From a virus (lineage: Duplodnaviria; Heunggongvirae; Uroviricota; Caudoviricetes): a stretch of 25,133 bases of DNA. The stretch covers positions 1 through 25,133 of IMG/VR virus record IMGVR_UViG_2529293240_000009. The stretch is one strand, 5' to 3'. Below are positions 6,001 to 9,000 of this stretch, piece by piece. Made by a program: the position numbers. Position 1 is the stretch's first letter. Every line of letters begins with the position of its first letter.

Positions 6001-9000
6001 TGGGATCGCGCGTGTTTTTTACTGCACTCTGACAGGGAAACGCATCATCATGCTGCATAGTTTTGTAAAGAAAACGCAGAAAACACCGCCAGCCGAACGC
6101 AAGAAAGCTGAAACCAGAATGAAGGAGGTTAAGCATGACTGGTAAACGCACTCTCCCCACCATGACACACGACGAAATGGCAGCCAAATGGATGGAAGAC
6201 CCGGCTTTTAAAGCAGAATACGACGCTATCGCTGACGAATTCGCACTGCTTGATGAAATGCTGGCAGCACGCAAAGAAGCTGGCTTAACTCAGGCTGAAG
6301 TTGCCGAGCGAATGGGAACAAAAGCGACCGCGATCACCAGAATGGAAAGTAATCTCGCATCAGGTATCAGCGGCCCATCATTTGCCACCCTAAAAAAATT
6401 CGCCCGCGCTACTGGAAAAAAACTCCAGATCCGCTTCGTTTAACCACACCGCGCCGTCATTCTGGCGGCGCACCGGATAAATAGTCATTTCCTCGCACGA
6501 TGTCTTAGCCACCGGATATCCCACAGGTGAGCCGTGTAGTTGAAGGTTTTTACGTCAGATTCTTTTGGGATTGGCTTGCGTTTATTTCTGGAGCGTTTCG
6601 TTGGAAGGTATTTGCAGTTTTCACAGATTATGTCGGTAATACTTCGTCGCTGTCGCCTCATGCCGCCCTCCCTGTTCGTTGTGACCATTCATACTCTCGC
6701 CGGGAGTTATCACTCCACCGCACGTTGCGCTCTGAGCCGAACCAGAACATGATTTCGATAAGCTCAGTCATGCTGGCCTTTCGCATTTTGCTGGTACGCA
6801 CGCCAAGCATGACAACGCCACCGCCGATACCAGGCGCACTTCGTTGCTCCAGTTTTTTGGTCTTAAGCCACAGGGCAGTGAACAGGTCTTTCCAGTCTTC
6901 CGGCGCCAGCCGTTGACCATGCCATAGCACCTGACGCGAAACATCGTTCAGCATCGGCCACATACGGTCATTCTGCGCTTTGCTGCGTTTGGGTTCTCTA
7001 ACGTGGACTTCGTGGGGTGACTTGTCGTCGATGGGTAGTGAGAGAATGGCGTCTATGGCGTTATTTCTGATTGCTTCGTTGCGAAGCAGGAATAATTGCT
7101 TCACTTGCCCTCCTGCTCTTCTCCTTGCGCTTATCCGCGTAATACCGGTTTAATTCGTCAGACATCTTCTCTCCGATAAGCGGCCATGACTCAAACCTCG
7201 CATTCGCAAAATTCTCAAGCCATTTCGCAAAATCATCCAATTTATCTGCTAACCAATAAACAAAATATGACAGCCATACTGCTGAAGCCAAAAAGATACG
7301 ATGCGGATTAAGGATGAAAATAAGCGATATTTTCATTCCTCGTGATACTTTGCTCATGCTCACTCCTTCACTTTAAATCCAGACTCCGGATAATTCTGTC
7401 ACACTGAAAATCATTATCGATTTTAACCAACCGGCGAAGAACGCGGTCACGCGGATAGCTCCGTGGCTTAGGGGCGTTTTTCTGTCTCTCGCCAGTCGGA
7501 AGTCTGGAAGCAGACCAGTACCGCTTTGCACGACCAATGTTCTCCTGAAAGTCGGCGCGGACAAGCTCAGTCAACGAACTCATTTCTTAAAACCTCCTCA
7601 AACGTATTCTGACGCATTTTTCATTCTCGCTGCTATATAAATACCTTGTACGCGTTTACCTCGCTACAGAGCGATTGTGATGCCTTAAAAGCGATTTATT
7701 GAAGTGATATTTGCTTAATCGAAATTCTTTTCTTTGATTCCTGCGGCCCTGATGGCTTTCATTACTGCAATTACCGTTTTGTCACGCCCATCCTCATAAC
7801 CCATCGCATAAGCACCTTCTTCACCATCTTTCCAAAAGTCGTCATTCGATTCGGGCCAGTCGATATCCAGTTCAATAGCAGAGCGCGATGCCTGCCATAT
7901 CACCCAGGCAAACTCTTTTAATTCATCGTCTCCTGTGAACTGGTTTTTGTCTTTTGACCACCAGTTTTCAAACTGTCGGTAGCTATCGTTCACTTCCCTC
8001 TCCCCCAAATAAAAAGGCCTGCGATTACCAGCAGGCCTGTTACAAGCTCAGTGATGTAGATGGTCATCAGAATCCTCCTTTCTTCTTGGACTGCGGTTCC
8101 TCGCGTTCACGTCGGCGCATTTCAGCAGACTGTTGGTCTGTGTCATAAATAGCGCCATTTGCCTGAATGCAATACACCGTGCCGGTATTGCCATGACGAT
8201 TGAGACGAAGGATTAGTTCGGTTTCACCAGGTGGAACACTGTCATCAAAAGCACCTTCACGATGGATCCCCACCCAATAATCGCAATCCTGTTCAATCTG
8301 CCCTGTATCTCGTGAGTCACTTGGTAATGGGCGTTTATTGGTTCGGCTTTCCAGTGCGCGGTTAAGCTGCGTCAGAAGCACAACAACGCAATCAAGCTCT
8401 TTGGCAAGGTTCTTCAGTCCTTTGGTGATCATGCCGTAGGCAAGGTTCTTCAGTCCTTTGGTGATCATGCCGTAGGCAAGGTCGTTGCGATCGGCCTTTT
8501 CAGCGGTCATTAGTGTCAGGTCATCGACCAGAATCATGCCAACACATCCTTTTTCTCGCTTGATTCGACGGCTTTCGCTGACGATTTGAGCCAGAAATAA
8601 TCCCGGCGTGTCGTCGATGTAAAGCAGGTCGATTTCACTCAAGCGATTGGCTGTTTCGATCGCCCTGTTGAAGTCACCATCGTAATCACCCTGATAGCCG
8701 TCATCGGCGTCATTTGTCGCCGGAAGGTAAAAAATATTCGGGTTAACACCAGACTTCTGCCCTACCAGTTTTTCCAGTATCTGATCACCTGGCATTTCAA
8801 GGCTGAACATCAGAGCGGGCTTTTTCTCATGCACTGCGCAGTTGATTGCCATCTGGCTGTATAGCGTCGTTTTCCCCATCTTAGGGCGAGCGCCAATGAC
8901 AAACAGAGAGCCTTTCACCAGACCTTTCGGTGACAGCATCCTGTCCAGCGATGGGATCCCTGTGCTCATTCCTCGTTGTTCGCCTGACGGGTCAAAACGC

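What the first reader, a model, noticed from the sequence alone, without database searches (positions are those of the whole stretch)
7061..8067. Tightly coupled array of unknown small genes between the helicase and ninB
Downstream of the DnaB-type helicase there is a chain of stop/start overlaps: the helicase TGA overlaps the ATG of a 25-codon hydrophobic peptide (ATGA), whose TGA overlaps a GTG start of an acidic roughly 92-aa protein (GTGA). After a 130-bp gap come a basic 71-aa protein and a roughly 98-aa protein with a hydrophobic N-terminus, both with near-consensus Shine-Dalgarno sites, the second overlapping ninB. None matches a family I recognise. This position in lambdoid phages (ren and nin region) typically holds host-takeover, exclusion or anti-defence genes.
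Basis: partly seen in the sequence, partly recalled or inferred. Interest (0 to 1): 0.5.

Follow-up and report, generated by a model that had tools for sequence, protein, structure and literature searches.

The report
Lambda tR2 terminator plus nin-region cargo genes
The interval is the ordinary start of the "nin" region of a decayed lambda-like prophage: the 25-codon ORF is the known ninA mini-ORF wrapped around phage lambda's tR2 terminator, and the three small genes after it belong to catalogued, function-unknown families that are shuffled among lambdoid phages.

Summary
The four ORFs exist as described, on the minus strand. One detail differs: the helicase stop and the 25-codon start share a single base (TGATG), not ATGA.

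The 25-codon ORF is "ninA" of P22, HK620 and phage L. It contains a hairpin plus U-tract that is 32/32 identical to lambda's tR2 intrinsic terminator, and several public records annotate it that way.

The other three genes belong to catalogued families of unknown function:
- The acidic 92-aa protein is PF26207 (Phage_phiTE_015), phrog_343, VT2-Sakai orf29.
- The basic 71-aa protein is DUF7301 (PF23975).
- The 98-aa protein is 94% identical to orf98 of phage L (named after ST64T).

Identical proteins are already deposited from Shigella. In 110 related loci where ninB was found, the tR2-to-ninB slot holds zero to five genes in about 28 arrangements, and these three families occur in varying order. 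They are independent accessory cassettes, not a fixed operon. Chains of overlapping stops and starts were described for the lambda ninR region in 1982.

Profile and structure searches gave no function. The prophage here lacks its immunity region, N and pR, and its O gene has an in-frame stop, so in-situ expression is doubtful. An anti-defence role is plausible but untested. Interest is low.

The parts
8067..9554 (-). DnaB-type replicative helicase (P-like), the upstream flank. Its TGA (8069-8067) shares base 8067 with the ninA ATG.
   Evidence: Pfam DnaB 3.5e-31 and DnaB_C 7.9e-56; phrog_19 1.4e-131. Junction sequence TTCTGATGACC.
7990..8067 (-). ninA mini-ORF of 25 codons. It bridges the upstream stop to the next start and contains tR2.
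   Evidence: phrog_5907 E=1.2e-18. Annotated ninA in HK620, phage L and Nil3. The frame is open for 20-34 codons in nearly all related loci examined, apart from one 109-codon fusion, and its start overlaps or abuts the stop of at least 7 different upstream genes.
8005..8038 (-). Lambda tR2 Rho-independent terminator: stem AGGCCTGC / GCAGGCCT, 8-nt loop, tail TTTTTATTT.
   Evidence: Terminator scan. The 32-nt core is found once, with no mismatch, in lambda between ren and ninB (alignment). Folding energy -15.7 kcal/mol, z -2.4. Annotated tR2 in AM051322 and AF335538.
7715..7993 (-). Acidic 92-aa accessory gene of the PF26207 (Phage_phiTE_015) / phrog_343 family, equivalent to VT2-Sakai orf29 and Nil3 ORF29.
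   Evidence: phrog_343 2.3e-29. 81 homologues, nearly all carrying a precomputed PF26207 hit. Near-identical to Sakai orf29. AF2 model: three helices plus a low-confidence acidic loop, pLDDT 67.7.
7584..7714 (.). 131-bp intergenic spacer with no detectable element.
   Evidence: RNA fold z +1.1. No promoter or terminator call there on the sense strand. No Rfam hit. Related sequence is present in VT2-Sakai.
7368..7583 (-). Basic 71-aa accessory gene, DUF7301 (PF23975) / phrog_1785, equivalent to Nil3 ORF30.
   Evidence: Pfam 80.2 bits against a cut-off of 27, E=1.2e-22. phrog_1785 4.9e-31. 55% identical to phage L orf69. Median dN/dS 0.41.
7061..7357 (-). 98-aa accessory gene of the phrog_5603 family (orf98 of ST64T and phage L). 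It has a hydrophobic N-terminal region with a nearly invariant NPH motif. Its last 44 nt overlap ninB.
   Evidence: phrog_5603 3.5e-51. 94% identical to phage L orf98. Only 14 cluster representatives among 1.84 billion proteins. Alignment motifs. AF2 model: H6-16, kink, H18-57, H61-88, pLDDT 77.
6658..7104 (-). ninB (Orf recombination mediator), the downstream flank and fixed anchor of the variable slot.
   Evidence: Pfam NinB 4.6e-47; phrog_72.

Best explanation
The interval is the beginning of the nin (delayed-early) region of a lambdoid prophage remnant. Two kinds of element make it up.

(1) The tR2 / ninA cassette. Directly after the replication helicase sits a roughly 75-bp cassette that is almost invariant among lambdoid phages. 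It is the lambda tR2 intrinsic terminator embedded in the ninA mini-ORF.
- Shown here: the hairpin and U-tract are identical to lambda's.
- Established for lambda: tR2 stops pR transcription after the replication genes unless RNA polymerase has been modified by the N antiterminator.
- Inferred: the ninA frame mainly acts as a ribosome bridge. Its AUG overlaps the stop of whatever gene lies upstream, and its stop overlaps the next start. Translation therefore stays coupled across the terminator in read-through transcripts. Its hydrophobic sequence could be largely a by-product of a GC-rich stem followed by a T-run.
- Shown here: the same cassette joins many different upstream and downstream modules. 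Inferred: it may therefore also serve as a homology patch for module exchange.

(2) Three cargo genes. Between tR2 and ninB lie three independent, mobile, non-essential accessory genes: PF26207, DUF7301 and the orf98 family.
- Shown here: the slot is hypervariable and the three families occur in varying order.
- Inferred from position: in an intact phage they would be expressed only after N antitermination.
- Speculative: they act on the host or on competing phages or defences. The acidic, Trp-rich helical protein would be a protein-binding decoy, the basic 71-aa protein a nucleic-acid or protein binder, and the orf98 product a small membrane-associated protein.

In this window the prophage has lost its immunity region, N and pR, so the array is probably poorly expressed or silent.
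For: tR2 / ninA identity:
- The terminator scan finds an 8-bp stem with 6 G-C pairs plus TTTTTATTT, entirely inside the ORF.
- The 32-nt core matches lambda once, with no mismatch, between ren and ninB.
- An 86-bp query covering the cassette matches 410 phage records. Records annotate it as tR2/terminator and the ORF as ninA.
- Published measurements on the lambda sequence give tR2 a termination efficiency of about 0.9. The ninA start site is 'not weak', and translating it lowers termination by only about 10% (PMC4824070).

Bridge behaviour:
- In nearly all related loci examined the frame stays open for 20-34 codons; the exception is one 109-codon fusion.
- Its start overlaps or abuts the stop of at least 7 unrelated upstream genes, and its stop commonly overlaps the next start: TCATGA into ninB in the lambda type, GTGA or ATGA into PF26207.
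- A second hairpin type shows compensatory changes, GGGGCTATT/AGTAGCCCC against GGGGCCACT/AGTGGCC.
- A loop change that gives Leu to Gln occurs in 8 contigs. A frameshift in the T-run and a premature stop also occur.

Cargo slot:
- Of 110 loci in which ninB was found, 53 have no gene between tR2 and ninB. The rest show about 28 architectures.
- Phage L carries all three families, in the order DUF7301, PF26207, orf98.
- Median dN/dS is 0.55 for PF26207 and 0.41 for DUF7301, against 0.11 for ninB.
- Deleting the whole nin region leaves lambda able to form plaques (PMC10695390).

Defective prophage:
- The O gene has an in-frame stop.
- Pfam domains identify IS3-family and IS4 transposases, then an integrase fragment, then chromosomal genes including gyrA. 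No repressor, Cro or N gene is present.
Against: - No experiment or homology result defines what any of the three proteins does.
- The proposed biochemical roles rest only on charge, predicted helices and genomic position.
- Three contigs carry a ninA variant with no hairpin that still encodes a 34-residue transmembrane-like peptide. This hints that the peptide itself may matter.
- The ribosome-bridge role of ninA is an inference from junction conservation. The cassettes are near-identical by descent, so the loci are not independent observations. The sample was also anchored on the first 23 nt of the ORF.
- Transcription in this particular remnant was not measured.
Confidence: 0.85

Rival explanations
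1. The three longer genes are anti-defence, exclusion or host-takeover factors. This refines the cargo-gene explanation and does not exclude it.
For: - The slot is hypervariable and non-essential.
- In VT2-Sakai the position directly upstream of ninB holds a gene annotated as Lar-like restriction alleviation.
- Purifying selection is relaxed relative to ninB.
- PF26207 has a mosaic, variable acidic middle segment between conserved ends.
Against: - No hit to any PADLOC, NCBIfam, Pfam or PDB family of known function.
- orf98 resembles the Lar-like protein only in a 17-residue tail that is encoded by the shared overlap with ninB.
- No literature was found on these families.
Confidence: 0.3
2. ninA encodes a functional small membrane peptide, and the terminator is merely superimposed on its coding sequence.
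For: - The frame is open in nearly all related loci and the start site appears active in lambda.
- A variant without a hairpin still encodes a 34-residue hydrophobic peptide with a basic tail (L012 and L088).
- A second hairpin type also keeps a hydrophobic reading.
Against: - The C-terminal third varies with the downstream module (GRGK*, GRGKS*, GRVNRG*, GRG*).
- A non-conservative Leu to Gln change in the hairpin loop is common. A frameshift and a premature stop are tolerated.
- A GC-rich stem followed by a T-run translates into Gly/Ala/Leu/Phe/Ile regardless of any selection on the peptide.
- Transcripts that terminate at tR2 lack the ninA stop codon (PMC4824070).
Confidence: 0.15
3. The four ORFs form one co-adapted functional unit, for example an acidic/basic partner pair plus a membrane component, translated as a coupled operon.
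For: - Spacing is tight (GTGA overlap, a 10-nt gap, a 44-nt overlap) and the Shine-Dalgarno sites are strong.
- PF26207 and DUF7301 have opposite charge.
- DUF7301 is usually found in loci that also carry PF26207.
Against: - Order and membership vary freely among the roughly 28 architectures. Each family also occurs without the others.
- PF26207 is present in most non-empty slots anyway, so co-occurrence with it is expected by chance.
- A 131-bp untranslated spacer separates the first pair.
- The exact arrangement was seen in only one RefSeq E. coli genome, where DUF7301 is frameshifted.
Confidence: 0.08
4. Some or all of the small ORFs are non-coding chance frames in a decaying prophage.
For: - The prophage is defective.
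- A 25-codon open frame has a chance probability of about 0.3.
Against: - The three longer ORFs each belong to conserved protein families with retained length and motifs.
- dN/dS is below 1 for the two families that could be tested, and the Shine-Dalgarno sites are near-consensus.
Confidence: 0.03

Closest known systems
Phage lambda tR2 intrinsic terminator with the overlapping ninA mini-ORF (lambda, P22, HK620, phage L, Nil3)
   Same: The 32-nt hairpin and U-tract are identical. The position is the same, immediately after the replication genes and before ninB. The ORF starts with the same codons, and its AUG is linked to the upstream stop.
   Different: The upstream gene here is a DnaB-type helicase with a TGATG junction, whereas lambda has ren with an ATGA junction. 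The ORF ends in GTGA and runs into a PF26207 gene, whereas in lambda it ends in TCATGA and runs into ninB. There are three substitutions in the first 30 nt relative to lambda.
nin region of Salmonella phage L / ST64T (orf90-orf69-orf86-orf98-ninB)
   Same: It contains members of all three families: orf98 at 94% identity, DUF7301 at 55%, PF26207 at 33%. It follows ninA/tR2, and orf98 overlaps ninB in the same way.
   Different: The gene order differs (DUF7301 before PF26207), there is an extra orf90, and there is no 131-bp spacer.
VT2-Sakai (Sp5) and Nil3 Stx-phage nin region (orf28-ninA/tR2-orf29-ORF30-Lar-like-ninB)
   Same: The helicase end is near-identical, as are the tR2 cassette, the 92-aa gene and the spacer. 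A related DUF7301 gene follows.
   Different: Sakai has an extra 89-aa gene between the helicase and ninA. It also has a Lar-like gene where this window has orf98.
Lambda ninR 'chain of interlinked genes' (Kroger and Hobom 1982)
   Same: Successive small genes are joined by overlapping stop and start codons (ATGA and similar). PMC8022706 describes this as general for lambdoid nin regions.
   Different: The gene content between tR2 and ninB is absent from lambda itself.

Membership tests
Lambda tR2 Rho-independent terminator | G+C-rich hairpin immediately followed by a U-tract on the transcribed strand | tested here: met
   8-bp stem with 6 G-C pairs, 8-nt loop, TTTTTATTT tail. Folding energy -15.7 kcal/mol, z -2.4.
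Lambda tR2 Rho-independent terminator | Sequence identity to lambda tR2 and the same map position (after the replication genes, before ninB) | tested here: met
   The 32-nt core matches lambda once, with no mismatch, between ren and ninB. Alignment. Annotated tR2 in AM051322 and AF335538.
Lambda tR2 Rho-independent terminator | Terminates transcription in vivo and is overridden by N antitermination | not testable with these tools
   Published for the identical lambda sequence, with termination efficiency about 0.9 (PMC4824070). No N gene or pR is present in this window.
ninA mini-ORF (phrog_5907) | Profile match, and a position overlapping tR2 with the start linked to the upstream stop | tested here: met
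   phrog_5907 E=1.2e-18 over 25/27 positions. Junctions.
ninA mini-ORF (phrog_5907) | The ORF is actually translated into a peptide | tested here: inconclusive
   There is only indirect published evidence for initiation in lambda. The substitution pattern is compatible with either constraint on the RNA or constraint on the peptide.
PF26207 (Phage_phiTE_015) / phrog_343 | Significant profile match over the whole protein | tested here: met
   phrog_343 E=2.3e-29. The local Pfam copy returned no PF26207 match, so the Pfam assignment is indirect.
DUF7301 (PF23975) | Score above Pfam's gathering threshold | tested here: met
   80.2 bits against a cut-off of 27, covering profile positions 1-64 of 65.
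orf98 family of ST64T and phage L (phrog_5603) | Full-length profile and pairwise match, and a position overlapping the ninB start | tested here: met
   phrog_5603 E=3.5e-51. 94% identity to phage L orf98. A 46%-identical homologue lies in the same position upstream of ninB in an unrelated replication context.
Lar family restriction alleviation protein | Sequence similarity to Lar-like proteins beyond the ninB-overlap tail | tested here: not met
   Only the last 17 residues align, 11 of them identical. These are encoded in the alternative frame of the ninB 5' end. There is no NCBIfam or Pfam hit.
Ren exclusion protein | Similarity of any of the four products to lambda Ren | tested here: not met
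   The 92-aa protein against lambda Ren gives BLASTP E=7.7. The 'protein ren' label belongs to the neighbouring gene in the other genomes.
Known anti-phage defence system components (PADLOC) | A hit to any PADLOC model | tested here: not met
   No family at E<=1 for any of the four products.

The most novel reading that the evidence does not exclude
Two novel readings are not excluded.

(1) One or more of the three cargo proteins is a new anti-defence or host-modulating factor carried in a recombination-prone slot behind tR2. The best candidate is the acidic PF26207 protein, which has a mosaic, fast-evolving Trp/Asp-rich middle segment.

(2) The ninA mini-ORF is a selected ribosome shuttle, so that translation of the upstream replication gene tunes read-through of tR2. 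It might additionally be a genuine small membrane peptide, as the hairpin-less 34-codon variant suggests.
Probability: 0.25. Interest if true: 0.45.

Novelty: already known. Interest (0 to 1): 0.15.

Why it matters
The result mainly serves as a correction. A 'hydrophobic micro-peptide' coupled to a helicase turns out to be one of the best-studied bacterial terminators read as protein. This is a useful warning for sequence-only scans, because a GC-rich stem followed by a T-run translates as a membrane-like peptide.

The comparative result has modest value. It shows the tR2-to-ninB interval as a hypervariable cargo slot bounded by two conserved anchors. That gives a short, well-defined list of small gene families (PF26207, DUF7301, orf98 and about two dozen others) to test for anti-defence or host-takeover activity in lambdoid and Stx phages.

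Tried and rejected
Searches that gave no functional assignment:
- Pfam, NCBIfam and PADLOC scans of each product, and Pfam scans of all alignment members. These gave only sub-threshold noise such as Glyoxalase_4, HTH_RNase_II and MCM_lid.
- PDB sequence searches with single sequences and with profiles: nothing at E<0.5.
- AlphaFold2 models of the 92-aa and 98-aa proteins, searched with Foldseek against PDB and BFVD. No match reached E<=0.001; the best was 0.043, to an unnamed viral protein. The afdb50 library was unavailable.
- An exhaustive HMMER search with orf98 found only 14 cluster representatives, none annotated.
- Literature searches for DUF7301, PF23975, PF26207 and phiTE_015 found no papers. 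Cheng et al. 1995 on nin terminators is not held.

Ideas considered and rejected:
- A structured RNA, promoter or small-RNA gene in the 131-bp spacer. The fold z-score is +1.1, there is no promoter or terminator call on the sense strand, and there is no Rfam hit.
- The 92-aa protein as Ren, and orf98 as Lar.
- The 97-aa TTG and 100-aa GTG start alternatives. Homologues start at the GTG/ATG and at the MSK ATG positions.

dN/dS for orf98 could not be estimated, because the sampled loci are too similar.
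Full report
**Observation.** The genes lie on the minus strand. A DnaB-type helicase (9554..8067; Pfam DnaB and DnaB_C, phrog_19) is followed by four ORFs.
- A 25-codon ORF occupies 8067..7990.
- A 92-aa ORF starts at the GTG at 7993 and ends at 7715.
- After a 131-bp spacer comes a 71-aa ORF (7583..7368).
- A 98-aa ORF (7357..7061) overlaps ninB (7104..6658) by 44 nt.

Predicted pI values are 4.4, 10.6 and 9.8 for the three longer products. Shine-Dalgarno sites are strong (GGAGAGG, GAGGAGG, AAGGAG). 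One detail needs correcting. The helicase TGA and the ninA ATG share a single base (TTC TGATG ACC). The ATGA tetranucleotide at that site is the stop/start overlap used by ren in lambda, not by the helicase here.

**The 25-codon ORF is ninA laid over lambda tR2.** A terminator scan places an 8-bp, 6-GC stem, an 8-nt loop and a TTTTTATTT tail at 8038..8005, wholly inside the ORF. The stem folds at -15.7 kcal/mol with z = -2.4. The 32-nt core AGGCCTGCTGGTAATCGCAGGCCTTTTTATTT occurs once in lambda, with no mismatch, between ren (ends at 40570) and ninB (starts at 40644). Over the whole cassette the window differs from lambda at three positions before the downstream modules diverge.

An 86-bp query covering the cassette matches 410 phage records at mostly 95% identity or more. 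These include lambda isolates, Stx phages, and HK620 and P22-like Salmonella phages. Several records annotate the hairpin as 'tR2' or 'terminator' and the ORF as 'ninA' (AM051322, AF335538, MW013503). PHROGs holds the ORF as phrog_5907 (E = 1.2e-18).

Li et al. 2015 (PMC4824070) studied exactly this sequence.
- tR2 reaches a termination efficiency of about 0.9 once the upstream stop codon is more than about 27 nt from the hairpin.
- The native NinA initiation site is 'not weak'.
- Translating it lowers termination by only about 10%.
- Transcripts that end at tR2 leave NinA ribosomes without a stop codon.

In this window 28 nt separate the helicase stop from the stem.

**What the mini-ORF is for.** I collected loci from IMG/VR by anchoring on the first 23 nt of the ORF, and added the reference loci.
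- The frame is open for 20-34 codons in nearly all of them. The exception is one 109-codon fusion.
- Its AUG overlaps or abuts the stop of at least seven unrelated upstream genes, mainly ren, several helicase types and a family labelled f33.
- Its stop usually overlaps the next start (TCATGA, GTGA, ATGA, TAAATG).

Three cassette types exist.
- The first is the lambda hairpin.
- The second is a different hairpin plus T-run. Two versions of it differ by compensatory changes (GGGGCTATT/AGTAGCCCC against GGGGCCACT/AGTGGCC).
- The third is rare and has no hairpin, but still encodes a 34-residue hydrophobic peptide.

Within the lambda type, stem changes seen in more than one contig keep pairing through G-U. 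A single contig carries a C-to-A change that breaks a near-terminal pair. A loop change giving Leu to Gln is present in 8 contigs. One T-run frameshift and one premature stop also occur. The C-terminal residues change with the downstream module.

I read this as selection on the RNA hairpin plus selection for an open, junction-linked frame that acts as a ribosome bridge. A functional peptide is the less likely alternative. The loci are related by descent and were ascertained on the ORF's 5' end, so this is an inference and not a test.

**The three longer genes.** All three belong to catalogued families of unknown function.
- The 92-aa protein matches phrog_343 (2.3e-29). Its homologues carry a precomputed PF26207 hit, named Phage_phiTE_015. 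It is near-identical to VT2-Sakai orf29 and Nil3 ORF29.
- The 71-aa protein is DUF7301 (PF23975; 80.2 bits against a cut-off of 27) and phrog_1785.
- The 98-aa protein matches phrog_5603 (3.5e-51) and is 94% identical to orf98 of phage L (named after ST64T).

Exactly these three protein sequences are already deposited from Shigella flexneri and S. sonnei as hypothetical or DUF7301 proteins.

The families are narrow. PF26207 and DUF7301 homologues come from Escherichia, Shigella, Salmonella and a few other enterobacteria such as Hafnia. An exhaustive HMMER scan of 1.84 billion representatives found only 14 for orf98.

They behave as real genes.
- Lengths and motifs are conserved. PF26207 keeps SRxQFExW...WQASRxAIE and IRAAGIK. 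DUF7301 keeps ELVRAxF...YPRDRVLRRL. orf98 keeps NPH, W35, P59 and G62.
- Median dN/dS is 0.55 for PF26207 and 0.41 for DUF7301, against 0.11 for ninB.

**They are cassettes, not an operon.** Of 110 loci in which ninB could be located downstream of tR2, 53 have nothing in between, as in lambda. The rest show about 28 architectures of one to five genes. PF26207, DUF7301 and orf98 appear alone, together and in different orders. Phage L has DUF7301, then PF26207, then orf98.

The precise order found here was recovered only in one RefSeq E. coli genome, behind a lambda-type ren/P module and with DUF7301 frameshifted.

Whichever gene sits immediately upstream of ninB acquires the tail ...ASQRSNQK. 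It reads into the alternative frame of the ninB 5' end. This tail is the only similarity between orf98 and the Lar-like gene that occupies the same slot in VT2-Sakai. A 46%-identical orf98 homologue lies in the same position, overlapping ninB, behind an unrelated primase-helicase module.

Tight ATGA-type chaining is a documented general property of nin regions (PMC8022706; Kroger and Hobom 1982, cited in PMC7166090 and PMC10695390). The whole region is dispensable for lambda plaque formation.

**Function.** No method gave a functional lead.
- NCBIfam and PADLOC returned nothing.
- Pfam on all family members gave only noise.
- PDB sequence and profile searches found nothing.
- The AF2 model of the 92-aa protein has two N-terminal helices, a low-confidence acidic loop (residues 38-66) and a C-terminal helix. 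Mean pLDDT is 67.7.
- The AF2 model of the 98-aa protein has a short helix, a kink at NPH, a 40-residue helix and a third helix. Mean pLDDT is 77.
- Neither model found a significant fold match in PDB or BFVD.
- Hydrophobicity of the orf98 N-terminus is borderline for a membrane span (1.45).

My functional guesses are therefore inference from composition and position only. They are an acidic protein-binding decoy, a basic nucleic-acid or protein binder, and a small membrane-associated protein.

**Context.** The surrounding prophage is defective.
- The O gene carries an in-frame stop (10050..10048).
- Upstream of it lie an IS3-family transposase, an IS4 transposase and a truncated integrase. 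Chromosomal genes follow (DUF1175, DUF2138, gyrA, an autotransporter).
- No repressor, Cro, cII or N gene and no pR is present.
- The helicase has a perfect 36-bp in-frame tandem duplication.
- No complete E. coli RefSeq genome carries this whole arrangement.

In situ, the array has lost its native promoter and antiterminator and sits behind an efficient terminator. Expression is therefore doubtful.

**Verdict.** The interpretation needs revising. The micro-ORF is a known terminator and mini-ORF, the chaining is a known nin-region trait, and the three proteins are known-but-uncharacterised cargo families. An anti-defence or host-modulating role remains a reasonable, untested possibility.

Noticed in passing
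window 8403-8482 (minus-strand helicase gene): A perfect 36-bp in-frame tandem duplication (2.2 copies) repeats AYGMITKGLKNL inside the DnaB_C domain. It makes the helicase 495 aa, against 483 aa in VT2-Sakai.
   Followed up: partly
window 10048-10050 (minus strand): The replication O gene is split by an in-frame stop codon (...IDGEK*KGRVI...), so the replication module is probably non-functional.
   Followed up: partly
window 10604-14110: An IS3-family transposase (10604-11443), an IS4 transposase (12110-13456) and a truncated phage integrase (13514-14110) replace the immunity/N/pR region. Chromosomal genes follow, including gyrA at 16562-19189. This is a cryptic prophage remnant.
   Followed up: partly
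window 5551-5747 (minus strand): Rfam finds C4 antisense RNA, isrK and the c4 a1/b1 target just upstream of an antirepressor gene (4812-5498). This is a P1/P7-type antisense control module for ant.
   Followed up: no
window about 5860-6443 (plus strand): A Gp49 (HigB/RelE-like) plus HTH_3 pair sits between ninE and the ant module, on the opposite strand. It matches the genes annotated as RelE/ParE toxin and HigA antitoxin in E. coli FDAARGOS_944.
   Followed up: no
window 7061-7104, and L002 (VT2-Sakai): Unrelated genes that sit directly upstream of ninB (orf98, the Lar-like gene, some PF26207 members) all end in ...ASQRSNQK. They read into the alternative frame of the ninB 5' end, which marks a recombination junction at the ninB start.
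   Followed up: yes
L040 and L071 (second hairpin type); L012 and L088 (no hairpin): Variant ninA cassettes exist. One has a different terminator hairpin with compensatory substitutions. A rare one lacks any hairpin but encodes a 34-residue transmembrane-like peptide.
   Followed up: partly
window 7598-7624 (minus strand, in the 131-bp spacer): An 8-codon mini-ORF (ATGAAAAATGCGTCAGAATACGTTTGA) has a stop that overlaps the Shine-Dalgarno sequence of the DUF7301 gene. Its significance is unknown.
   Followed up: no
window 6485-7104: ninB is followed directly by ninE. The N6-adenine methyltransferase that lies between them in VT2-Sakai and E. coli FDAARGOS_944 is absent.
   Followed up: no
protein P0118 (from a Logan contig): A gene caller fused the ninA frame in-frame to a DUF7301 gene (101 aa). 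This shows a context in which DUF7301 directly follows tR2.
   Followed up: no
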